DNA of 64,000 nucleotides, taken from assembly GCA_964625535.1 (NCBI GenBank), contig CAZVEX010000003.1:55524-119523 (forward strand). The letters run 5' to 3'. This document shows positions 41,709 to 64,000 of the stretch, piece by piece. This DNA comes from an uncultured Gammaproteobacteria bacterium (GTDB taxonomy: Bacteria; Patescibacteriota; Microgenomatia; Daviesbacterales; UBA10151). The translations under genes and the position numbers were made by a program. Position 1 is the first letter of the stretch. The number at the start of each line of letters is the position of its first letter. The notes under the pieces were generated by a model that made no database searches, was not told the DNA's origin, and saw only the letters and a program-made list of their open reading frames with translations.

Positions 41709-42677
41709 TCAATACCTTGTGCGCAGGGCCAGTAACGCTCCTGCCAGGACAAAATAATACCCCACCCAGACAATCCACAAAAACTCCCCCACATATTCCC
41801 AGGCAAAAGGCAAAGAGCTAAAAAACTGGACTATATAAATAAAATAGGTCAGCATGATATTTAAAACAAAGCTCAAAAGTTGGCCAAGCAAAGAAACTGC
41901 GCTTCCTAAAAGCAGAAACAAAAATCCCACTCCCATAATATAAGGAACTATCCAAAGCACCAGGACATTGGCAAACAGCGATACAAAAGAAAATTGATGA
42001 AAATTGGAGGCGATAACAGGGGTAACCATCAGTTGGGCCCCCAAAGTGACTGCCAGATTCTCTTTAACAATATTGGGTAAAAAATGCATTGATTTTTCCA
42101 AGATGGGAGCCACCACAATTACCCCAAACGAAGCTAAAAAACTCAACTGAAAAGACAAATCGCTGATCCAGCGAGGATTGACTAAAAGAAAAAAGCCCGC
42201 CACTAAAATTAAAACCCACAGGCCATCATTCTGACGGCCAAAAGTTTGGGCTAATGAGGCCAATCCAAACATCAAAGCAGCCCGCAAAATGGGAATTTGA
42301 GCTCCAGTCAATAAAGTGTAAGCTACAATAGCAAAAAGTGTTAGAAAAATGGCTGTTTTTCTTTTGATTAAACCCGAAAGATGCATAATAAAACCGGCCA
42401 AAATGGTCAGGTTCTGGCCCGAAGCCACTACAATATGTAAAGTTGAAGTATCCCGCAAAGCCAGACGCAAATCATAAGGCAAATCCAGCTTTACCCCCAA
42501 AACTATGCCCGAGAGAAGCTGCGCTTGAGGAGAAGGCAAAAACTCTTTCGATTTTTGGGTTAAAAAAATTCTCTGATCTTTGAAAATTTCTGTTTGAACT
42601 TCCCAAGTTGGCTGCTGCCACCTGACAAAATATAACAAAACATATAAAACTATTGCCAATATAAGTGGTAATTTCAC
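41709..42677 (-). CDS. comEC: ComEC/Rec2-family competence membrane channel (competence domain only)
   Basis: Polytopic membrane protein with LLSGIVLGVKLDLP...TSTLHIVVASGQNLTIL matching the Competence (PF03772) core. Adjacent to comEA. Confidence 0.7.
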   Translation of the reverse strand: MKLPLILAIVLYVLLYFVRWQQPTWEVQTEIFKDQRIFLTQKSKEFLPSPQAQLLSGIVLGVKLDLPYDLRLALRDTSTLHIVVASGQNLTILAGFIMHLSGLIKRKTAIFLTLFAIVAYTLLTGAQIPILRAALMFGLASLAQTFGRQNDGLWVLILVAGFFLLVNPRWISDLSFQLSFLASFGVIVVAPILEKSMHFLPNIVKENLAVTLGAQLMVTPVIASNFHQFSFVSLFANVLVLWIVPYIMGVGFLFLLLGSAVSLLGQLLSFVLNIMLTYFIYIVQFFSSLPFAWEYVGEFLWIVWVGYYFVLAGALLALRTRY

Positions 42678-43282
42678 AAAATAACTATTGAATCCTTGAT
42701 TTTTTCAAAAACACTTTTGGAGACGATTTTTAAAGTCAGTAAATCCTCTATTTTTGAATAGGGCCGGCCGGAGATAATTTTGGAGGCTGTGACAGGACCA
42801 ATACCAGGTAAAGCTTCCAGTTCGGCTTGAGTGGCAGTATTAACGTTGACTTTTGCCTGGACACCTGCCACAGTTCCCCCACCTACCCCTCCGGAATATT
42901 GTTCTCCTGCAAACGGCACATAAATTTTCATGCTGTCAGAGAGCTTCAAAGCCATATTTAAATACTTGGCAATGTATTCTCCGCTGGCATTTTCGGACAG
43001 CCCTCCGGCCGCTAAAATGGCATCCTCCACCCTTTGCCCCTCATCCAGCTGATAGACTCCAGGATTAACCACTGCCCCTGAAACATCAACACTAATCTTT
43101 TTTAAACCCGAAACAATACTTTCTTTAGGGTATTCTACTTTGGGCTTGGTTAATCCTGAAACAAAAACTCCGCCAATAATCAGCACTAATCCAACTAAAG
43201 ATAGCCCCAGCGGGATTTTAAATTTATCAAGCTTTTTCTGCCAGCTTAATTCTTCATTCATAATGCTTAATTCTTCATTCAT
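42674..43282 (-). CDS. comEA: ComEA-like DNA receptor (SLBB + helix-hairpin-helix)
   Basis: C-terminal VNVNTATQAELEALPGIGPVTASKIISGRPYSKIEDL is the ComEA HhH motif. N-terminal TM anchor. Confidence 0.8.
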   Translation of the reverse strand: MNEELSIMNEELSWQKKLDKFKIPLGLSLVGLVLIIGGVFVSGLTKPKVEYPKESIVSGLKKISVDVSGAVVNPGVYQLDEGQRVEDAILAAGGLSENASGEYIAKYLNMALKLSDSMKIYVPFAGEQYSGGVGGGTVAGVQAKVNVNTATQAELEALPGIGPVTASKIISGRPYSKIEDLLTLKIVSKSVFEKIKDSIVIL

Positions 43283-43691
43283 AATGCTTAATTCTTAACT
43301 CATTCCGGTACTGCCTGATCCAGTCGCGGTATGCTTTTGCCAAATGCTCCATGCCTCGCCGTATCATTTCCCTTTTGACTATCCCTCCTTCATGGGGATA
43401 ATGATGCAGTCTGCGGTGAGGCGAGGAAAAACCATGAGCATAATGGCAAAGCTCATGAGCAATGGTATGGTCAATCACGGCCGCAGGAATCTGATTGTCC
43501 TTGAACATGCCGGTGATGGTGATAAAAGTTTGGCCTGATTTTTTATCGTACTTGATAGAGCCCAGGCGAAGCCTGGCAAACCTGCCAAACTTAATAAAAA
43601 CTTTGTTGTTCTGTAATACATCAGAAAAATATTCTGACCAGACCCAGTCCAAACGGGATAGAAGCCAAATATTATCTCTTTGTGTTTTCAT
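43275..43691 (-). CDS. HExxH zinc metallopeptidase, DUF45/SprT-like
   Basis: IDHTIAHELCHYAHG...HHYPHEGG matches the DUF45/YgjP-type pattern. Confidence 0.5.
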   Translation of the reverse strand: MKTQRDNIWLLSRLDWVWSEYFSDVLQNNKVFIKFGRFARLRLGSIKYDKKSGQTFITITGMFKDNQIPAAVIDHTIAHELCHYAHGFSSPHRRLHHYPHEGGIVKREMIRRGMEHLAKAYRDWIRQYRNELRIKHYE

Positions 43692-46522: not shown

Positions 46523-47368
<846 letters not shown>

Positions 47369-52713: not shown

Positions 52714-55700
52714 ATGAAAAATCCGTCTGTCAACTACCTCAAAATTGGTCAAGCCGCCAAGGCTTTAGGCGTTTCCATTGATACCCTCCGAAGATGGGAA
52801 AGGAGTGGAAAAATTGAAACCATCAGAACTCCGGGAGGAACAAGATTATACTCCCTGACCCATCTTAAAAAAATCAATCCTAAATCAGTTCAAGACTTTC
52901 AGGCTACAGGGCAGACTACAGAAGAACTGCTAAAAATCCAGGAAAATCCAGAAAGACTCTATGAGCCAGAGAATCAGAACATCGGATATTCTGATATATC
53001 AGATCTATCCGAAAAGAAAAAATCTTCCCTGGTCAATAAATTCCTGATTGGCACCGGAGTACTTTCAGTCATTACTCTGATCGTCACCTCCTGGATTACA
53101 GCTTCTTACCTGACTCGACCCAAAGAAACAGCACAGTTTTTCAAAAATAACATTGCCACTCCCCTTTTGAAACCGTTTCATATCCTTGCCGAAGAAACAA
53201 TCGCTGTAATTAACCCCAAAAAGGCTAAAGAACTGGGGTTTATTCCTCATGAAAAACCCCCTCCGATACCCTATACCCTAAACCCTAAACCCTCTTTTAA
53301 TGTCCTGGCTGTCACGGCCAGTCCTCAATTTTTAGAGGTCAATAGCGATACTCAAATTAACGGTTCGTTATTTGTGCGTGATAGCATCAATGATCTTATT
53401 TTGGAAGCCACACCATCTGCCTCAACTTTTGAAATGATTTCAGGAGATACCATATTAACTGTAACAAACAGTAGCACAATAGATCAAAACTTATCCACAG
53501 CCTCTTCTCCCAGCTTTGATACGCTTAATCTGACAGCTAACAATAACCAACTAATCTTTCAATCAGGCGGGCCAACCGGTACTTTAACCTGGACCCCAAC
53601 TGCCGCAAGAATCATTACCCTTCCCGATGCCACAACAACCCTGGTGGGAACGGACACTACTCAAACATTAACTAATAAATCGCTATCCGGTTCGTCAAAC
53701 ACTTTTACCAGTATTCCCAACTCCGGCCTATCCAACTCCAAAGTAACAGTCACAGCCGGCACTAATCTTTCCGGGGGCGGAGATGTATCGCTTGGCGGAT
53801 CCATCACTCTAAGCCTGGCATCATCTCCTTCAGTATCCGGAGTCATACAACTGGCAGATGGCACAGCTGCAGCTCCTTCTTTAACTTTCACTAATGACAC
53901 TGACACAGGACTATATCGAATCGGCTCAAACAGCATCGGCTTAATCACCGGTGGCTCTGCCACCTCCGGCATTACCATTAACTCATCCGGTAATGTGGGG
54001 GTGGGAACTATCAGTCCCACCACTGCCTTGTATGTAGTTGGCGCCGGTACCATTACCGGCAACCTGACAGTTGATACAAATGTAGGCATTGGTACTTCTG
54101 TTACCCCTTCTGCCAAGCTGGGAGTGGTCGGAAATGTGGGCATTGGAAATAGCTTCGCCTTTGCCAATGTGCCTGTTAATGGCCTGGCTGTACAGGGTAA
54201 TGTAGGTATTGGCACTACCACTCCTGATTATCCTTTGCATGTAATTGGCAATGTGGGTATTGGTAATTCTGCATTAATAAACGGTTTAACTACAGCGCTT
54301 GGTGGGCTGCGGGTTAACGGATTTTCTGATTTAACTGGTAATGTGGGGATAGGGCAATCATTAACAGTATCCTCTACCGGAGCGTTCAGATTATCCGGAC
54401 AAAACTGTTCCACCTTAACAGGAGGAGGTAAGTTAACCACAGATGCATCTGGTAATGTATTCTGCAGCGCTGATTCAGGTTCTGGAATAACATCAGGTTC
54501 AGGAGTAGCTGGAGCAGTCACTTTCTGGGACAGTGCCAATACTTTATCCAATTCAGTTGCCAACTTTTACTGGGATTCTACTAACTATAGATTGGGTATA
54601 GGTACATCTTCTCCCGGAGGATCATTAATAGTCCAAACCGGTAATGTAGGAATAGGTATATCTGCCCCATCTCAAGTATTACAGGTTAATACTGGAGCCA
54701 ATTCTGTAGTGGTAACAAGTGGTGGCAATGTGGGGATAGGTATTACCACTCCTGATTATCCTTTGCATGTAATTGGTAATGTGGGTATTGGTAATTCTTT
54801 AACAGTCAACAATCTCTCCAATCTGCTGGGAGGACTGCGAGTTAATGGATTTTCTGACTTAACTGGTAATGTGGGGATAGGTGGATCATTAAATGTTTCT
54901 TCTTTATCCACTTTCCTCTCATCCATCCTGGGAGCTGACGGATCAGTTAGTGCTCCTGCATATTCATTTAATCTGGATACGGATACAGGCATATTCAGGC
55001 CGGGAACTAATGCTTTGGGACTGGCCACAGGTGGATCATCAAGATTAACTGTAACAGCAGCAGGACTGATTGGCATAGGTATTACCTCCCCAGCTGCCAC
55101 TTTCCAGGTTAATTCCGGGTCCTCATCTACAGTTATTACCTCAACAGGGAATTTAGGGATAGGCACCACTTCCCCCAGGATGCCATTGGAGGTAGTAGGT
55201 AATGGTACATTTTCTGCCCTGTTTACCAATGGCAATATCGGCATTGGTACCACAGCTCCTGTGGCAAGCTTGTCTGTTGCAGGTAATGTGGGAGTGGGTG
55301 GAACTTCTGCCGGAGCTGCATATAACTTTGATGTCTGGGGAACAGGCAGAATAACAGGAGCCTTAACAGTGGGAGGGAATCTGGGCATTGGTGGAACAGC
55401 CAATATTGACAGTTTAACCTACGGCTTGGGAGGATTAAGGGTTAATGGACTGGCTGATTTAACTGGTAATGTGGGGATAGGTGGATCATTAAACTTAACT
55501 TCGCTTGCTTCATTTAGCTCAAATTTGCTGGTTCAAGGCGGTGATATTGATACTTCTGCCTCCACTTTTAATGTGGCCTCATCAGCTACCACCCTAAATT
55601 TGGCCGGAGGATCATCCAATACAGGATGTACTATTGACGGATCAGGTAATATAACCTGTACCGGCAATATTGGCGGCGGCGGTACCGGTACGCAGGGATT

Positions 55701-58700
55701 TTGGGGCAGAGCCACAACTCCGGTAAATGTAATCTATCCTGCCACTCAAACAGATGTTTTAGGCACATTTGGTAATGTGGGGATAAATACCACTAATCCT
55801 CAAGGGGCATTGGTAGTTTTAACTGGTAATGTAGGTATAGGTATATCTGCCCCATCTCAAGTATTACAGGTTAATACTGGAGCCAATTCTGTAGTGGTAA
55901 CAAGTGGTGGCAATGTGGGGATAGGTATTACCACTCCTGATTATCCTTTGCATGTAATTGGTAATGTGGGTATTGGTAATTCTTTAACAGTCAACAATCT
56001 CTCCAATCTGCTGGGAGGACTGCGAGTTAATGGATTTTCTGACTTAACTGGTAATGTGGGGATAGGTGGATCATTAAATGTTTCTTCTTTATCCACTTTC
56101 CTCTCATCCATCCTGGGAGCTGACGGATCAGTTAGTGCTCCTGCATATTCATTTAATCTGGATACGGATACAGGCATATTCAGGCCGGGAACTAATGCTT
56201 TGGGACTGGCCACAGGTGGATCATCAAGATTAACTGTAACAGCAGCAGGACTGATTGGCATAGGTATTACCTCCCCAGCTGCCACTTTCCAGGTTAATTC
56301 CGGGTCCTCATCTACAGTTATTACCTCAACAGGGAATATAGGTATAGGGATAACTACAGCCAATTCTGCCTTAACAGTTAATGGTGGAGCAGTGATTGGT
56401 ACTGGATATAACTTAACTGCTCCCACCAATGGCCTACTGGTCCAGGGTCTGGTGGGAATTGGTACCACAGCTCCTGTGGTAGCCCTGTCTGTTGCAGGTA
56501 ATGTGGGAGTGGGTGGAACTTCTGCCGGAGCTGCATATAACTTTGATGTCTGGGGAACAGGCAGAATAACAGGAGCCTTAACAGTGGGAGGGAATCTGGG
56601 CATTGGTGGAACAGCCAATATTGACAGTTTAACCTACGGCTTGGGAGGATTAAGGGTTAATGGACTGGCTGATTTAACTGGTAATGTGGGGATAGGTGGA
56701 TCATTGACAGTTTCCGGACCAACCAGACTAAATGGATTAAGTCTAACTCTGGGAGCCGACAGTACAGGTGACATATTTTATAGAGATGCTACCGGTATTA
56801 TTGCCAGACTGCCTATTGGTATTTCAGGCCAGAGTTTAGCCATCTCATCCGGCATACCTACCTGGACCGATACCACCTCCTTTACCTCTGCTGCAGGATG
56901 GGTAGACGCAGGAGCATATTTGAGACTTTTGACCATGGGAGATAATGTGGGGATTGGAACCACTGCTAGTCAAGACCCAATAGGAAAACTTCACTTAAGA
57001 GGCAATGCCGATTCAACAGCGTTAACTTTTGTTACTACCAATAATGCTAATTCTAGTTTTGGATTGTCTGTTTTGGACAGTGGCAATGTGGGTATTGGAA
57101 CTACCTTACCTCAAGGGTCCCTAGTTATCCCTTCCGGTAATGTAGGAATAGGTATATCTGCCCCATCTCAAGTATTACAGGTTAATACTGGAGCCGATTC
57201 TGTGGTGGTAACAAGTGGTGGCAATGTGGGGATTGGCATAACCACTCCTCTTTTCCCTCTTCATGTTTTGGGTAATGTGGGGATTGGATCATCTTTAACA
57301 GTCTCCTCTGCGGCCGCATTAACTACTCTTAACGTATCCGGTATCTCATCTCTTGCCGGTAATGTTGGTATTGGTAATTCTCTAACAGTCAACAACCTCT
57401 CCAATCTGCTGGGAGGACTGCGTGTTAATGGGTTTTCTGACCTGACAGGTAATGTTGGGGTAGGCGGAAGCTTTACGGCTTCCGGACCAACCAGATTAAA
57501 CGGGTTAAGCCTGACTCTGGGAGCCGACAGTACAGGTGACATATTTTATAGAGATGCTACCGGTATTATTGCCAGACTGCCTATTGGTATTTCAGGCCAG
57601 AGTTTAGCCATCTCATCCGGCATACCTACCTGGACCGATACCACCTCCTTTACCTCTGCTGCAGGATGGGTAGACGCAGGAGCATATTTGAGACTTTTGA
57701 CCATGGGAGATAATGTGGGGATTGGAACCACTGTTGGTCAAGATCCTTATGCAAAACTGCACGTCAGAGGAAACGCCACAACCACAGGCCTGTCTTTCCT
57801 CACCACAGACAACAATAATACTCAAAGGTTTGCCATCCTGGATAATGGCAATGTGGGTATAGGCACAACAGCCCCTAATGCCACTTTGTCTATTCAGGGA
57901 AATGTTGGGATAGGGTTTACAGGAGTAAACCAGGTTATCCCCTCTAATGGCCTGGCAGTATCAGGTAATGTAGGTATTGGTGTAACCACTGCTAATTCTA
58001 CCTTAGCTATATCAGGTAATGGAGTTTTTGGAGCAGGATTTGCCGGGATGTCAGCTACCACCAACGGATTATTAGTAGAGGGTAGCGTTGGTATTGGTAT
58101 TTCTGTCCCCTCCCAAACCTTCCAGGTAGGATCTGCAGCTAACTCCTTAGTCTTTACTTCAGGAGGTAATTTGGGTGTAGGTATCACCACCCCCTTAAAT
58201 ACTTTGGATGTGGTAGGTACTACTCAACTAAGAGGAACAGGTGGAGTAGTTGGCTTGGCAGTCACCAATGATGGCAGAGTCGGTATTGGCAGGACCAATC
58301 CGGGTTCAACCTTGGCATTGGCTGTACAGGGTAATGTGGGTATTGGCGTAACTACGGCTAATTCTACCTTAGCTATATCAGGTAATGGAGTCTTTGGTAC
58401 AGGATATGCAGGAATGGCAGGACCAACCAATGGCCTGCTGGTCCAAGGTCTGGTGGGAATTGGTACCACAGCTCCTGTGGCAAGCTTGTCTGTTGCAGGT
58501 AATGTGGGAGTGGGTGGAACTTCTGCCGGAGCTGCATATAACTTTGATGTCTGGGGAACTGGCAGATTAACAGGGGCATTAACAGTAGATGGTAATGTGG
58601 GAGTGGGAGGATCATTAAATGTATCATCTCTTACAACATTATCATCAAATCTGAATGTAAGTGGAGTAATTCTAAATTCTGCCGGTTCCGAAGCTGCCCC

Positions 58701-61700
58701 CTCATACACTTTTAACGGTGATACGGATACCGGCATGCTGGTCCAGGGAGCCAATGACCTTATTCTCGCTACAGCCGGGGTAAAACGCCTTAGGATGGAT
58801 CCTAGTGGCCGATTTGAATTTATTTCAGGAGCTGCTACTTCTGCCAATCCTTTTTATTTTAGTGCCGGTGACATAACTGCGGCCAGCGGAGGAAATGTTT
58901 ATCAATTCAACAGTCCTACTATCACTCATACCAATAATATCACCAATCAGGGAATGGCCTATTTTGCAAATAACACCATCACCTCCTCATCTGCAGTCAC
59001 TGTCACTAATGCCGGCACCATCTGGATAAATGATATCCCTTCCGGGGGAGGCAGCAACACTGTAACCTATTCTGCAGGATTATATGTCAATCAGACAGGA
59101 GGAGGAAACAGGGTAACTAATGGTTATGGAATTTATGTCAATGCCCCAACAGGAGCCACTAATAATTATGCTGCTACTTTTTTGGGAGGTAATGTGGGGA
59201 TAGGGACTTCTTTCCCCTCCCAAACCTTTCAGGTTAATTCCGGAGCAAATACTTTTGTAATTAACTCATCGGGTAATTTAGGAATTGGCACTTCTGTCCC
59301 CAATGCTAAGTTATCCATCCAGGGTAATGTAGGGATAGGATATACAGGAGCCTCTCAAGTAATTCCCTCCAATGGCCTGGCAGTTTCAGGTAATGTAGGT
59401 ATAGGTATAACTACAGCAAACTCTACCCTGTCTGTAGCAGGAGGGGCCCATATAGGCAGTTTAAGACAGGGTATAGCTGCCCCCACTGATGGTCTGTTTG
59501 TAGATGGGAATGTGGGAATTGGGGCTACTACTTCTACTAATCTCTTGGATGTCTGGGGAGCAACCAATATAACAGGTAATCTAACCTTGGGTGGCGTATC
59601 TTTAGTATCGGATGGTACAGCTTCTGCCCCCGGATATTCATTCTCCGGCGATACTAATACAGGATTATATAGATTTGCATCTGATGGAATAGCTTTAATT
59701 ACCGGCGGCATATCCTCAAAATTGCTGTCCTTAAATTCCTCCGGTAATGTAGGTGTGGGAACTACCAGCCCGCAAGGCCCATTACATGTAACAACTGCCT
59801 CCGATGAAGTATTTCTGGTCAAGGGACATCAAACCTTAAGCACCGGTATTACTCTTAATGCGATAGATAATGGAAATAGTGCTAATGTCCCAATAGAATT
59901 TCGGGCAAGTCGTTTTGATTTTGAAGCGGGTAATGTGGGTATTGGGGCAACCACTGCCGCATATAATCTGGATGTTTGGGGAATAGGCAGGATAACTTCT
60001 GCCTTAACAGTGGGAGGGAATTTAGGCATTGGTACTTCTTTAACTGTGGATTCAGGAGTATCTTTGGCTTCTTCTTTACGGGTGGTGGGAAATTCACAAC
60101 TGTCCACTCTGTCTACCTCCGGAGACATTACCAATGCCGGGGTGTTTCTTTCATCTGACGGCACAGCCTCTGCTCCCGGATATTCTTTCTCCGGTGATAC
60201 CAATACCGGTATCTTTAGACCAAGTACTGATGCTTTGGGGCTGACCACAGGTGGTTCATCCAGATTAACTGTAACAGCAGCAGGTTTGGTGGGTATTGGC
60301 ATCACCTCCCCGGCTGCCACGTTCCAGGTTAATTCCGGGGCAAACTCTACAGTCATTAACTCATCCGGGAATGTAGGGATAGGCATGACCTCCCCCACCC
60401 AGCTTTTGGATGTGGCAGGGATTGCCAGATTAAGAGGTTCCGAAGGAACTATTGGATTAGTAGTGGTTGGAGGAGGTAATGTAGGCATTGGCACCACTGC
60501 TCCTGCTGCCAGACTTGATTTAGCAGGAGGACTGGGTTTTGCTCCTCCTTCCAATCCCAGATATATTGGAGGTGCAGATCCGGAAGGAGCTGCCGGAGAT
60601 GACACAATTATCACTTTGTCTCTGGCCGGCCGCTACGGCTATGTGGGTAAATCAAATAATGCCGGTACCTGTTCCTCCTCCGATCGAACCGGCTGTGAGT
60701 TTCAAATCTGGGATCTGTCAGATCCCACCAATCCCTCTTTTGTAGGCGGGGTCGATCTGGGGGCAGCAGGATCAGCTCTTTTTGTGGACGGAAAATATGC
60801 CTATCTGGGCGGGGCTTCCAATACCGGAGCATGTAATGCTTCCACCAGTACGGGTTGTACTGTACGGATTTATGATATATCTAATCCCTCCTCTCCGACT
60901 TATGTCGGAGGAATAAAAACCATCACCAACGACGGCACCGGCTCTCAAGGAATGGGTAACAGTGCTGCTGGTCAACGGCATATTTTTGTTTCCGGCCGCT
61001 ACGCTTATCTGGCCTTGGAGGATGCAACTGCCGGACAAAGCTGTAGCGCTTCCAATCTGGACGGCTGTGAGTTCCAAATTTGGGACATCTCCAATCCCGC
61101 CGCACCAATATCTATCAGCGGGACAGACTCCGGCGGTTCGGGCGATGATGCCAGAGGAGTTTATGTGCAGGGCCGTTATGCTTATCTTTGGAAAAATGCC
61201 AATGCGGGCACCTGTTCAGCAACTGACAAAACAGGTTGCGAAGTGCAAATTTATGATATTGTTAATCCATCCAGCCCGCTTTATATGGGTGGTTATAACA
61301 GCGGTCTGTCGCACTACACTCTGATCGTTTCAGGCCGTTATGCATATACGAATACCGGTACTGGTACCGCCAGTTTTTTGGTGATTGATATTTCCAATCC
61401 TGCCAACCCCACTTTAACTGCCACCGTGAATGCGAGTGTTGCCGGTTATGATATAGCCCTGGCCGGAAGATATCTTTATCAGGTCGGGAACACTGGCAGA
61501 CTGCATGTTTTTGATCTTTCCAACCCCTCCAATCCAATACAGATTGCCAACCCTATAGCTGGAGGAGGAGGATCCAGTTTCGCTGTAGCAGTAAGTGGAA
61601 GATATGTCTGGCTGGGCACCAATTCCAGCAGTACCGGCACCTGTTCCCAGAGTGATTTTACCGGCTGTGAGCTGGAAGTGTGGGATCTGGGAGGATTTGA

Positions 61701-64000
61701 GGGAGGATCGGTGGTAGCTAATGCTTTGGAGGCTGGAAGCTTGCAGGTCAGGGAAAATGCCTATCTTAACAATCAGCTTTATGTGTCTGGAGGAATAAAC
61801 ATAGGAGCAGGAGGTTTGTTATCAAGCGGATCAGTGGGAATAGGGGTATCAACAGGGGTAACAGCCTTAAGAGTAGAACAATTTGGTTTTCAGGGAGTAG
61901 GGTCAACTGCACCTACGGCTATCTTTAATGGAGGGAATGTGGGGATAGGGGCCACCAACTCCCATGTCTTCCCCAATTTAAGCTCCATGCTTTGGGTGGG
62001 AGGTAATGTGGGTATTGGCTGGACAGGAACAGGTACTGCTACTCCAGTTCTTCCCGGCTTAGGATTATCCGTATTTGGTAATGTTGGTATTGGAGCAACT
62101 ACTGCAAACTCTACCCTTTCTGTGGCAGGATCTGCCCATATAGGCAGTTTAAGACAGGGTATAGCTGCCCCTGCCAATGGGTTGTTTGTGGATGGGAATG
62201 TGGGGATAGGGGCTACTACCTCTTCTAATGCTCTGGATGTCTGGGGTAATGCCAGGATTACAGGGGCCTTGACTGTGGGAGGAAATGTAACCCTGTCAGA
62301 TGGTGCTTTAATGGATTTATCAGCTATTAATACTTCTTCCACCACAGAAGGATTGCTTTTACCCCAAGCCACATCCTGTGCTTCCGGTACGGCTGAAGGC
62401 CAGATCTGCTGGGATACTGATAATGACACCCTTTACTTGGGTACAAACGGCAGCCAGGTAACTATAACCGGAGGCAGCCCGGCACTCCATACTATCACCG
62501 CGGCAACCACTACTAACACTATTGCCAATGCCAATAATGCCCAAGTCTGGAACTGGGGGACTTTAACTACTCAAACTGGATTAACCTTTGGCGGTGGTAC
62601 GGCTATGACCACTGGTAGTATTTTTGATTTAGGGTCAGCTACTTATGTTCATACGGCCTTAAATGATATTGGTGAGGTCATAAATATTAACTTCACAGAT
62701 GCTTCAACTAATGCCAACAATGGTGGTACCACGATTGGTTTAAATATAGCCTCAACTATTAATACTTCTGGTGCTGGCACTAAATCTATCACAGGCGTTA
62801 ATATTGCCACTCCTACCAAAACAGCCTGCACAACCGGTGCTTGTACCTGGACAGGTCTGGCAATTGCTGACCCCGGAACACTGGCTAATACCACATTTTA
62901 TGCTGCTACCTTTGCCGGCGGCAACGTCGGCATTGGCTTTACTGCACCTGACAGGTTAACTCAGATAGGATCGGATATAAACATAGTAGGTTCTAATACT
63001 TCACTTTTGGGAGCAGCAGGTAGCCAGTTTGCCATAACCGGAGGATCTGCCACAGGATTACAAAAGAAATTAGTCCTAGGCCTAGATACTACAGATAACT
63101 ATGGAGTAATCCAGGCAGGGAATACTTCAGGGACTAATTATGATTTATCCCTCAATCCTGCCGGAGGAAATATCGGCATCGGGACTACTACTCCTTTAAG
63201 CTTACTGCATCTTGACGGCAATATTGTCAGCATGCAAATCCGTTCCGCGTCAGATACAGCAGGTCAGGGAATTGGATATATTGCTGAACGATCCCGCGGC
63301 ACTCAAGCTGCCCCAACCGCCATTCAAGCTGATGACATGATCATGTCTTTAGCCAGTCGAGGATATGATGGGTCCTCTTTCACTACTCAAGCCGCCATAC
63401 GTTCTTTTGCTTCTCAAAACTTTACTGGTTCTAATAAAGGCACTTATTTAACTTTTTTGACAACACCCAATAATTCCACAACGAATACGGAAAGAATGAG
63501 AATAGACAATGGCGGCAACGTTGGCATTGGGTTTACCTCACCTACCAGATTATTAGAACTGGCTGTGGATGCTAACCCTGCAGGAACTAATGCATCATTA
63601 ATTAATACAGCAGGAACTACCCAATTAGCTTTAACAGGCACCGCAGCAAATGCCCAGAAAAAGTTAGTCCTGGGTATAGATACCACAGATAACTATGGAG
63701 TAATCCAGGCAGGGAATACTTCAGGGACTAATTATGATTTATCCCTAAATCCTGCCGGAGGGAATGTGGGGATAGGGACTACTTCCCCTCTTGCTCCTTT
63801 ACATGTCTGGGGTAATAATACAAATTCTGCCTTCTTCCTAAATGGCAACGTCGGCATTGGGATGACGAGCCCGGGGACACTTCTCCATTTAAAACATACG
63901 GGTGACGCGGCCATTACCCTCGAGGCGGATACGGATAATACCTCCGAAACAGATAACGCCTATATTAGATTCTTGCAGGACAATCGTCTTATCGAATCAG
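52714..64000 (+). CDS. Giant (>3,760 aa, 3'-partial) membrane-anchored surface protein. Architecture: N-terminal MerR-type HTH, single TM helix, huge extracellular region of [10 protein letters not shown] tail-fibre-like repeats, an LVIVD beta-propeller and internal segmental duplications.
   Basis: Own translation in frame 1 from the ATG at 52714, with a stop at 52684 in frame upstream. The frame was checked at 54241, 58441, 60661, 62941 and 63961 and is still open at the window end. N-terminus [45 protein letters not shown] is a MerR HTH. Residues ~109-131 [23 protein letters not shown] form a TM helix. GNVGIG repeats recur every ~20-25 residues. LVIVD-type blades (GRYAYxG...GCExQIWDxSNPxxP) are present. 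The gene is absent from the ORF track because there is no stop in the window. All minus-strand PIPTLP-rich ORFs here are antisense. Confidence 0.8.
   Translation, partial: [3762 protein letters not shown]
54641..56715 (+). repeat. Near-identical ~1.2 kb tandem segmental duplication inside the giant gene
   Basis: 54641-55147 vs 55825-56331 show 1 mismatch seen over ~507 bp. 55246-55500 vs 56461-56715 are near-identical. The blocks are separated by a diverged ~100 bp with a 31-nt indel (offsets 1184 and 1215 nt). Partial third copies lie at 54181-54270 and 57130-57250. Confidence 0.8.
56751..57735 (+). repeat. Second intragenic duplication (offset 768 nt), ~215-260 bp near-perfect
   Basis: 56751-56965 and 57519-57733 are identical (encoding [74 protein letters not shown]). 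This also explains the identical 61-aa antisense ORFs in the track. Confidence 0.8.
60560..61710 (+). repeat. LVIVD-repeat beta-propeller region (about 7 blades) within the giant gene, each blade with a conserved Cys pair
   Basis: Repeated GRYAYVG / GKYAYLG / GRYAYLA / GRYAYLW / GRYAYTN / GRYLYQV / GRYVWLG. Each is followed by ...[24 protein letters not shown]. Confidence 0.7.

What the first reader, a model, noticed from the sequence alone, without database searches (positions are those of the whole stretch)
54641..56715. Recent ~1.2 kb tandem duplication inside the giant gene
Two blocks of ~507 bp (1 mismatch seen) and ~255 bp (near-identical) are repeated at an offset of 1184-1215 nt, with extra partial copies nearby. 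Such young intragenic duplications imply ongoing repeat expansion and contraction, so surface variation. They are also exactly what short-read assemblers collapse or mis-join, so the copy number here may be wrong.
Basis: seen in the sequence. Interest (0 to 1): 0.5.

Follow-up and report, generated by a model that had tools for sequence, protein, structure and literature searches.

The report
Patchwork repeats in giant fibre gene
Inside a giant surface-fibre gene of an uncultured Daviesbacteria-like bacterium, stretches of 501, 220 and 220 bases are repeated letter for letter between older, diverged modules, which points to recent copy-and-paste recombination within the gene rather than one fresh 1.2 kb duplication; this is a familiar way for repetitive surface proteins to evolve.

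Summary
The repeats are real and far beyond chance. Block 1 is 54636-55163 = 55821-56348 (528 nt, 4 mismatches, 501 nt perfect, offset 1185). Block 2 is 55240-55490 = 56455-56705 (251 nt, 5 mismatches, 220 nt perfect, offset 1215). Codon shuffles give at most 18 nt.

It is not a simple young 1.2 kb tandem duplication. Two ~1.2 kb units do lie head to tail, but outside the two perfect runs they are only 38% identical. The blocks sit in different registers, and the sequence after copy 1 differs from that after copy 2. A third perfect pair of 220 nt (56746-56965 = 57514-57733) lies next door. Around 55213-55490 three modules support three different groupings in succession.

The best reading is an old module array that was recently and partly homogenised by intragenic recombination (gene conversion). 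The gene (ATG 52714, at least 3762 aa, runs off the window) has a MerR-type DNA-binding N-terminus, one membrane helix and about 60 GNVGIG motifs. It resembles phage-tail-fibre-like and Bdellovibrio MAT fibres.

All 35 exact repeats of 20 nt or more are in frame, so recombination would change fibre length without breaking the protein. The assembly warning is justified: in four related genomes the contig ends inside this gene. Copy number here could not be verified. This is an ordinary mechanism in a poorly known lineage.

The parts
52714..64000 (+). Giant open reading frame: ATG at 52714, at least 3762 codons, runs off the window end. It encodes a membrane-anchored, fibre-like repeat protein.
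   Evidence: Frame scan and translation. The orthologue P0001 starts with the same MKNPSVNYLKIGQAAKALG.
52741..52875 (+). N-terminal MerR/excisionase-type helix-turn-helix (aa 10-54), inferred to be cytoplasmic.
   Evidence: Pfam MerR E 2.2e-12, MerR_1 E 1.8e-7. Conserved in the orthologues.
53038..53112 (+). Single hydrophobic segment KFLIGTGVLSVITLIVTSWITASYL (aa 109-133), read as a membrane anchor.
   Evidence: Read from the translation. No topology predictor was run.
54376..54635 (+). U0: diverged leader of unit 1. It carries one of only two Cys pairs in the first 2600 aa (aa 565/584).
   Evidence: Weak homology to U1: global alignment z 2.8 with 2 of 500 shuffles reaching the observed score; the last 21 aa are 57% identical.
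54636..55163 (+). Block 1, copy 1 (528 nt). The perfect tract T1 is 54652-55152.
55164..55239 (+). Diverged patch of copy 1 (76 nt) between blocks 1 and 2.
55240..55490 (+). Block 2, copy 1 (251 nt). The perfect tract T2 is 55271-55490. In addition, 55243-55343 is identical to 58459-58559.
55491..55820 (+). U1: 330 nt that follow copy 1 and lead into copy 2. It is not repeated after copy 2 and carries the second Cys pair (aa 972/982).
55821..56348 (+). Block 1, copy 2. The perfect tract T1' is 55837-56337.
56349..56454 (+). Diverged patch of copy 2 (106 nt, 30 nt longer than in copy 1). Its 3' part groups with the module at 58.4 kb.
56455..56705 (+). Block 2, copy 2. The perfect tract T2' is 56486-56705.
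56642..57009 (+). Block 3, copy A (89.7% to copy B). The perfect tract T3 is 56746-56965. It overlaps the end of block 2, copy 2.
57134..57303 (+). Older third copy of the head of block 1 (about 89%). Its first 62 nt are identical to 54638-54699.
57410..57777 (+). Block 3, copy B. The perfect tract T3' is 57514-57733.
58423..58586 (+). Module 'm58': a third copy of the start of block 2, 93% identical to copy 2 and 96% to copy 1. It is the partner in the three-way mosaic.
60171..60397 (+). Old copy (80%) of the 3' half of block 1 (the YSF..DT.TG..R segment).

Best explanation
The region is part of a long array of paralogous modules in a giant, membrane-anchored, fibre-like surface protein of a Daviesbacteria-like (Candidate Phyla Radiation) bacterium. 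Two ~1.2 kb units, each a Cys-pair leader 'U' followed by a module 'A', arose by an old tandem duplication and diverged. Recently, homologous recombination within the gene copied sequence from one module onto another without reciprocal exchange (gene conversion). This left perfect tracts of 501 nt and 220 nt between the two A modules, a further 220-nt tract between the next pair of modules, and shorter exchanges with a module at 58.4 kb. Because every repeat pair is in frame, the same tracts are substrates for unequal recombination. That would delete or add 395, 405 or 256 codons and so change fibre length and module content without destroying the protein. Shown here: the tracts, their abrupt borders, the diverged remainder, the three-way mosaic and the in-frame offsets. 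Inferred: the recombination mechanism, the surface location, the fibre fold and any role in variation.
For: 1. The tracts are perfect with abrupt borders. Identity falls from 100% to roughly 50-65% within a few bases at 54651/54652, 55152/55153, 55270/55271 and 55490/55491.
2. The aligned units have two perfect runs (501 and 220 nt), and the remaining 512 columns are 38% identical. The permutation maximum run is 55.
3. The leaders U0 and U1 sit at equivalent positions. They hold the only four cysteines of the first 2600 aa as two pairs but are otherwise highly diverged. This indicates that the unit duplication is old.
4. Three modules conflict in succession. At 55213-55242, copy 2 equals m58 at 15 of 17 informative sites. 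At 55265-55270, copy 1 equals m58 at 4 of 4 sites. At 55271-55343 all three are identical. At 55344-55490, copy 1 equals copy 2 at every informative site.
5. The perfect tracts have no synonymous differences, whereas the syntenic orthologue L001 is 74-83% identical in this gene. The identity is therefore recent, not maintained by selection on the protein.
6. Repeat pairs span 80% to 100% identity, which indicates continuing turnover.
7. All 35 maximal exact repeats of 20 nt or more have offsets divisible by 3.
8. The fibre nature rests on several leads. There are 56-65 G-N-V-G-I-G-type motifs. The same motif aligns with the solved Bdellovibrio fibre Bd2133 (8OND, E 0.012). The top 10 Foldseek PDB hits are all Bdellovibrio MAT fibres. 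PHROG tail-fibre families match at E 2.6e-19. Homologues of the unit carry the Peptidase_S74 chaperone domain. The fold and motif are described in PMC10769870.
Against: No reads, and no second genome of the same species, were available. Neither the linkage across the 501- and 220-nt tracts nor the copy number is verified. Perfect identity could be partly produced by assembly or polishing. Homology of U0 and U1 outside their last 21 aa is weak: BLASTP is not significant and the global alignment z is 2.8. The age of the unit duplication therefore rests on modest evidence. The association of tract ends with GxxGIG-coding sites is only suggestive: 5 of 6 ends against a background of 0.36, p about 0.03 (my binomial estimate), with an ascertainment bias. 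The fibre fold is not demonstrated: the AlphaFold monomer has mean pLDDT 63.5, Foldseek TM is about 0.1, and the best E-value is 1.6e-3.
Confidence: 0.68

Rival explanations
1. A single recent tandem duplication of a ~1.2 kb segment, later modified by an indel and substitutions.
For: Two near-identical blocks lie about 1.2 kb apart, head to tail and in frame. The leaders U0 and U1 suggest a [U-A][U-A] periodicity of about 395-405 aa.
Against: A third of the unit (U) is diverged nearly beyond recognition, while 721 nt are perfect. The two blocks have different offsets, with a 76-nt versus 106-nt patch of low identity between perfect tracts. The sequence after copy 2 is not U-like but is a module shared with 57.4-57.8 kb. 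The three-way conflict with the 58.4 kb module cannot arise from duplication plus point mutation.
Confidence: 0.08
2. Assembly or polishing artefact. The modules exist, but their number, their order across the long perfect tracts, or their perfect identity is wrong. Possible causes are a collapsed or expanded tandem copy, a wrong path through the repeat graph, strain variants joined in series, or copies homogenised by short-read polishing.
For: The same gene breaks assemblies elsewhere. Contigs of four syntenic orthologues end 339-656 aa into the gene, and L001 ends inside the counterpart of tract T1. Homologues L014 and L011 end in a 127-nt perfect repeat and a 137-nt 98.5% repeat. Among the fetched homologous loci, no intragenic repeat at 99% or more exceeds 127 nt, and the two highest-identity ones lie at contig ends. 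The window is therefore exceptional. Two of the perfect tracts are both exactly 220 nt. The literature notes that repeat-rich giant genes fragment short-read assemblies (bioRxiv 10.1101/2023.11.21.568195).
Against: The window has no N, and the frame stays open through every junction for 3762 codons. The short-scale mosaic (shared tracts of 73 and 101 nt, with informative sites a few bases apart) lies within the length of a typical ~150-nt short read (my assumption), so it is unlikely to be a graph-path artefact. Graded identities of 80-98% in other pairs show that the repeat family is real.
Confidence: 0.2
3. A dedicated variation system, either a diversity-generating retroelement or a silent-cassette system as in Neisseria pilS or Mycoplasma MgPar, rather than general homologous recombination.
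For: A surface protein, repeated near-identical segments and a mosaic structure.
Against: Mismatches between near-identical copies show no adenine bias. No reverse transcriptase or phage genes were found among the 20 neighbouring ORFs scanned. No copy of any module exists outside the gene in the other 52.7 kb, by blastn or tblastx, and there are no inverted repeats in the gene.
Confidence: 0.04

Closest known systems
Helicobacter pylori cagY repeat regions (Aras et al. 2003, PMC2194252)
   Same: There are many direct DNA repeats inside one gene for a surface-exposed protein. Every possible recombination between repeats keeps the reading frame (35 of 35 here). The predicted outcome is in-frame deletions and duplications that change protein size.
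   Different: In cagY, size variants were observed within hosts and linked to antibody evasion. Here no variant has been seen. The protein family, the organism (a Candidate Phyla Radiation bacterium) and the repeat unit sizes are unrelated.
Bdellovibrio 'mosaic adhesive trimeric' (MAT) fibres and S74-type phage tail fibres (Caulton et al. 2024, PMC10769870; PDB 8OND, 8ONC)
   Same: The G-N-V-G-I-G-x-x-x-P-x-x-x-L-x-V motif aligns with Bd2133. The best Foldseek PDB hits are MAT fibres. Homologues of the unit end in a Peptidase_S74 chaperone. PHROG tail-fibre families match.
   Different: This protein is three to four times longer than Bd2133 (1,031 aa), the MAT fibre whose length appears in the text read (at least 3762 aa here). 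It starts with a MerR-type HTH and a membrane helix, contains an LVIVD propeller block, and its C-terminus is outside the window. Similarity scores are weak and trimer formation is untested.
Identical tandem repeats of Gram-positive surface proteins (alpha C/Rib of group B streptococci, Aap/SasG); recalled from general knowledge, not checked here
   Same: Repeats are identical at the nucleotide level in a surface protein. They are maintained by recombination, and copy-number changes alter protein length.
   Different: Those are uniform head-to-tail arrays of one unit. Here only parts of heterogeneous modules are identical, in different registers.
Mycoplasma genitalium MgPa/MgPar segmental gene conversion (PMC2169797, listed; only the start of its abstract was seen)
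   Same: Segmental exchange creates mosaic adhesin sequences in a small-genome bacterium.
   Different: In M. genitalium, as I recall (not read here), the donors are silent copies elsewhere in the genome. Here all partners lie within the one expressed frame, and none was found outside it.

Membership tests
Simple recent tandem duplication | Near-uniform identity over the whole repeated unit | tested here: not met
   The aligned units have 501 + 220 perfect columns; the other 512 columns are 38% identical.
Simple recent tandem duplication | One register (a single offset) and the same sequence following each copy | tested here: not met
   Offsets are 1185 and 1215, with a 76-nt versus 106-nt patch. 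Copy 1 is followed by U1, and copy 2 by a module shared with 57410-57777.
Gene conversion / concerted evolution among paralogous modules | Long identical tracts with abrupt borders inside otherwise diverged, alignable paralogues | tested here: met
   In the runs test, 501 nt was observed against a null maximum of 55.
Gene conversion / concerted evolution among paralogous modules | Successive segments supporting conflicting relationships among three or more copies | tested here: met
   the grouping changes from copy 2 = m58, to copy 1 = m58, to copy 1 = copy 2 along 55213-55490.
Gene conversion / concerted evolution among paralogous modules | Both paralogues present before the event (shown by orthologues carrying both modules) | tested here: inconclusive
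   The closest orthologue contig (L001) ends inside the counterpart of T1. Diverged U0/U1 leaders argue for an old duplication, but only weakly.
cagY-type in-frame recombining repeat region | All direct repeats within the ORF are in the same frame, so recombinants stay open | tested here: met
   35 of 35 maximal exact repeats of 20 nt or more have offsets divisible by 3.
cagY-type in-frame recombining repeat region | Size variants observed among cells or strains | not testable with these tools
   No same-species sequence was found in genome contigs, metagenome contigs or the protein collection. No reads were available.
S74/MAT-type trimeric beta-helix fibre | Repeated Gly-rich motif followed by P-x-x-x-L, as in solved MAT fibres | tested here: met
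   There are 56 strict and 65 relaxed motifs. The motif aligns with GNVGIGATAPTAKLEV of Bd2133. The published capping-loop consensus V-G-G/N-pi-x-x-P-x-x-x-L is similar but one residue shorter.
S74/MAT-type trimeric beta-helix fibre | Significant sequence or fold similarity to a solved fibre | tested here: inconclusive
   phmmer against PDB gives E 0.012 to 8OND. Foldseek gives E 1.6e-3, TM about 0.1, from a monomer model of mean pLDDT 63.5.
S74/MAT-type trimeric beta-helix fibre | C-terminal S74 chaperone or alternative adhesive tip; trimer formation | not testable with these tools
   The C-terminus lies beyond the window end. Relatives of the repeat unit do carry Peptidase_S74. No multimer prediction was available.
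Diversity-generating retroelement target | Template/variable repeat pair differing at adenines, with a reverse transcriptase nearby | tested here: not met
   The mismatch spectra show no adenine bias. No reverse transcriptase was found among the 20 ORFs scanned.

The most novel reading that the evidence does not exclude
The in-frame module array could act as a self-contained variation device for a host-attachment fibre of an episymbiotic Candidate Phyla Radiation bacterium. Recombination among modules inside one expressed gene would continually reshuffle fibre length and composition. The fibre is tethered through the membrane to a MerR-type DNA-binding domain, which might couple what the fibre touches to gene expression or to the chromosome. 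None of this is excluded by the evidence, and none of it is shown.
Probability: 0.12. Interest if true: 0.6.

Novelty: new member of a known kind. Interest (0 to 1): 0.3.

Why it matters
For this genome, the finding flags 54.3-58.0 kb as a place where module order and copy number must be verified before the gene length is quoted. It also corrects the evolutionary reading from one fresh duplication to concerted evolution of an old module array. For Candidate Phyla Radiation biology, it shows that a conserved giant fibre-like gene, always placed after the ATP synthase operon in Daviesbacteria, carries ready-made in-frame recombination substrates. That gene is nearly always truncated in published assemblies. 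It is therefore a reasonable candidate for variable host or surface attachment, and it is under-represented in current databases. The mechanism itself is well known from other bacterial surface proteins.

Tried and rejected
1. Looked for the same or a closely related genome to compare copy number. Scans of genome contigs (N-terminal query) and metagenome contigs (duplicated region) and the protein collection found nothing closer than 69% aa (N-terminus) or 79% over 22% of the unit. No strain comparison was possible.
2. The diversity-generating retroelement idea was rejected, because the mismatches have no adenine bias.
3. Silent donor cassettes and invertible segments were rejected. There is no module copy outside the gene and no inverted repeat within it.
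4. An AlphaFold2 monomer of the 395-aa unit gave a poor model (pLDDT 63.5; only residues about 100-190 are confident). The fold search therefore gives only weak support.
5. BLASTP of U0 against U1 finds only the last 21 aa. Homology of the remainder rests on the Cys pairs and a shuffled global alignment.
6. Tested whether tract ends sit at GxxGIG-coding sites. Five of six do, against a background of 0.36, which is suggestive only and biased by motif conservation.
7. Tandem Repeats Finder (maximum period 500) reports nothing in the region. The units are too long and heterogeneous for it.
8. A blastp self-comparison returned no rows with my filter. I relied on the nucleotide comparison instead.


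Full report
THE OBSERVATION

A single open frame runs from ATG 52714 to the end of the window, at least 3762 codons.
- Block 1: 54636-55163 = 55821-56348 (528 nt, 4 mismatches, offset 1185).
- Block 2: 55240-55490 = 56455-56705 (251 nt, 5 mismatches, offset 1215).

Base-by-base comparison shows that all mismatches lie at the edges. The cores are perfect: 501 nt (54652-55152 = 55837-56337) and 220 nt (55271-55490 = 56486-56705). A third perfect pair of 220 nt lies next door (56746-56965 = 57514-57733, offset 768), inside a 369-nt pair of 89.7% identity.

This is far beyond chance:
- The longest exact repeat in 100 codon-shuffled versions of the gene is 18 nt, and in the remaining 52.7 kb of the window it is 32 nt.
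- A permutation of concordant and discordant columns of the two aligned units gives a maximum run of 55, against 501 observed.

Older partial copies exist at 54196-54364, 57134-57303, 57358-57468, 58423-58586 and 60171-60397, at 80-96% identity.

WHY IT IS NOT ONE YOUNG 1.2 KB TANDEM DUPLICATION

I aligned unit 1 (54376-55490) with unit 2 (55491-56705). Of 1233 columns, 721 fall in the two perfect runs, and the other 512 are only 38% identical. Four features argue against a single recent event:
- Abrupt borders. Identity drops from 100% to roughly 50-65% within a few bases at each tract border.
- Different registers. The two blocks are offset by 1185 and 1215 nt because a diverged patch of 76 nt in copy 1 corresponds to 106 nt in copy 2.
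- Different downstream sequence. The 330 nt after copy 1 (55491-55820) do not recur after copy 2. Copy 2 instead continues into the module shared with 57410-57777.
- Old, diverged leaders. The stretches that precede each copy (U0 54376-54635 and U1 55491-55820) look like very diverged counterparts. They hold the only four cysteines in the first 2600 residues, as two pairs at aa 565/584 and 972/982, each roughly 60-80 residues before the perfect tract. Their last 21 residues are 57% identical. The remainder aligns better than 498 of 500 shuffles, with z 2.8.

So a ~1.2 kb periodicity [U-A][U-A'] exists, but it is old. Only parts of A are young.

DIRECT EVIDENCE OF MOSAIC EXCHANGE

I compared copy 1, copy 2 and a third module at 58.4 kb (m58) site by site:

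| Copy 1 coordinates | Grouping | Informative sites |
|---|---|---|
| 55213-55242 | copy 2 = m58 | 15 of 17 |
| 55265-55270 | copy 1 = m58 | 4 of 4 |
| 55271-55343 | all three identical | none |
| 55344-55490 | copy 1 = copy 2 | all |

Duplication followed by point mutation cannot produce three conflicting groupings in 280 nt. Recombination among at least three modules can. Likewise, the first 62 nt of block 1 in copy 1 are identical to 57134-57195, whereas copy 2 differs there at one site. These exchanges occur on a scale shorter than a typical ~150-nt sequencing read, so they are unlikely to be assembly-graph artefacts.

TIMING

The perfect tracts have no differences at synonymous sites either. 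The closest genome found is Candidatus Daviesbacteria UBA9644 (L001). It is syntenic from leucyl-tRNA synthetase through the ATP synthase operon into this gene, and it is 74-83% identical to the window within the gene. The tract identity is therefore much younger than the split of these two lineages, and selection on the protein does not explain it.

WHAT THE GENE IS

- Neighbourhood: ordinary chromosomal genes, namely LeuRS, ArgRS, argininosuccinate synthase and lyase, the ATP synthase operon and cell-envelope enzymes.
- N-terminus: a MerR/excisionase-type helix-turn-helix at aa 10-54, then one hydrophobic segment at aa 109-133, then more than 3600 residues.
- Repeats: 56 strict G-N-V-G-I-G-type motifs and an LVIVD propeller block.
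- Solved structures: the only PDB sequence with an E-value below 0.05 is the Bdellovibrio fibre Bd2133 (8OND, E 0.012), aligned through the same GNVGIG...P...L.V motif.
- Fold: the AlphaFold2 monomer of the 395-aa unit is poor (pLDDT 63.5), as might be expected for an intertwined trimer (my reading). Its ten best Foldseek PDB hits are nevertheless all Bdellovibrio MAT fibres, with weak scores.
- Families: PHROG tail-fibre families match at E 2.6e-19. Several homologues of the unit end in the Peptidase_S74 chaperone of endosialidase.
- Literature: Caulton et al. describe these fibres as trimeric beta-helices with recurring Gly-rich capping loops and a ~550 A model for Bd3182 (PMC10769870).

I conclude that the protein works like a very long, membrane-anchored, tail-fibre-like filament. 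Formal membership of the S74/MAT family is not established, because the similarity is weak and the C-terminus is outside the window.

MECHANISM AND CONSEQUENCE

The best explanation is intragenic homologous recombination, meaning gene conversion between paralogous modules. It is superimposed on an old duplication and has been repeated over time, as the graded identities of 80, 90, 93-98 and 100% show.

All 35 maximal exact repeats of 20 nt or more in the gene have offsets divisible by three. Any unequal exchange would therefore give an in-frame protein lacking or gaining 395, 405 or 256 residues at the three long tracts. This is the property reported for Helicobacter pylori cagY, where such events yield size variants of a surface protein (PMC2194252). 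If the module is built like Bd3182 (about 0.7 A per residue, a rough inference), 395 residues would change fibre length by roughly 25-30 nm.

Tract ends tend to lie at GxxGIG-coding sites (5 of 6, against a background of 0.36). That fits crossover in the conserved islands, but the test is weak and biased.

Alternatives tested:
- A diversity-generating retroelement is rejected, because mismatches show no adenine bias and no reverse transcriptase was found among the ORFs scanned.
- A silent-cassette or inversion system is rejected, because there are no module copies outside the gene and no inverted repeats within it.

THE ASSEMBLY QUESTION

- In four related assemblies (L001, L021, L022, L023) the syntenic orthologue directly follows the ATP synthase operon, and the contig ends 339-656 residues into it.
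- L001 ends inside the counterpart of the 501-nt tract.
- More distant homologues end in a 127-nt perfect repeat (L014) and a 137-nt 98.5% repeat (L011) at the contig end.
- Homologues that were assembled through (L002, L008, L013) have no repeat above about 92% identity over 300 nt.
- A preprint on giant genes makes the same general point (10.1101/2023.11.21.568195).

The window is thus unusual in spanning three perfect repeats of 220-501 nt. Without reads I cannot tell whether long reads resolved them. The order across each long tract, the copy number and the exactness of the identity remain unverified. The protein database listings showed only proteins under about 700 aa, so the observation that all orthologues are partial may be inflated by that limit. 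However, the four contig ends were checked directly.

VERDICT

It is wrong in one important respect, because this is patchy homogenisation of an old module array rather than one new tandem duplication.

The phenomenon is a new example of a well-known kind, namely concerted evolution and in-frame recombination substrates in a repetitive surface protein. It occurs in a little-studied lineage and gene family. Interest is modest.

Noticed in passing
window 52741-53112: The giant extracellular repeat protein begins with a MerR/excisionase-type DNA-binding helix-turn-helix (aa 10-54) followed by a single membrane helix (aa 109-133). This N-terminus is conserved in all Daviesbacteria orthologues found, and the gene always follows the ATP synthase operon. 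Why a giant surface fibre carries a cytoplasmic DNA-binding domain is unexplained.
   Followed up: partly
window ~60570-61720: An LVIVD-repeat (beta-propeller-like) block lies inside the giant protein, with five regularly spaced CxxxxxxxC cysteine pairs (Pfam LVIVD E 3.4e-16).
   Followed up: no
L013 35-11365 (Ga0156002_118): A complete 3776-aa homologue of the giant protein carries three intein-splicing-domain stretches as well as LVIVD repeats.
   Followed up: no
window 55271-55490/56486-56705 and 56746-56965/57514-57733: Two independent perfect tracts are both exactly 220 nt long. This may be coincidence, but it is worth checking against read length or assembler behaviour.
   Followed up: no
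L001 11490-11967 versus window 54263-55031: The closest orthologue (UBA9644) appears to reach the YSFNLDTDTG segment with one 'DYPLHV' module where the window has two (54196-54375 and 54724-54903, 80% alike). Module content may therefore already differ between related species.
   Followed up: partly
window 63063-63189 and 63658-63783: Another in-frame repeat pair lies near the window end (90.6% identity, 62 nt perfect, offset 594). The repeat turnover therefore extends beyond the flagged region.
   Followed up: no
window 54756-55403 (-) and 55941-56618 (-): Two antisense ORFs of 215 and 225 aa lie inside the duplicated blocks. They are duplicates of each other and are most likely by-products of the repeat, not genes.
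   Followed up: no
window 43244-43303 and 46539-46615: Short tandem repeats were found: a 21-nt unit x2.9 at the 5' end of the ORF 42674-43282 (-), and two 7-nt arrays at the start of the ORF 46526-47368 just upstream of the ATP synthase genes.
   Followed up: no
L002 10001-10346: In the more distant Daviesbacteria orthologue (JACOXG010000014.1, 2970-aa ORF) similarity begins only at query residue 27, and the listed ORF starts later at a TTG. The helix-turn-helix may be truncated or mis-assembled there.
   Followed up: no
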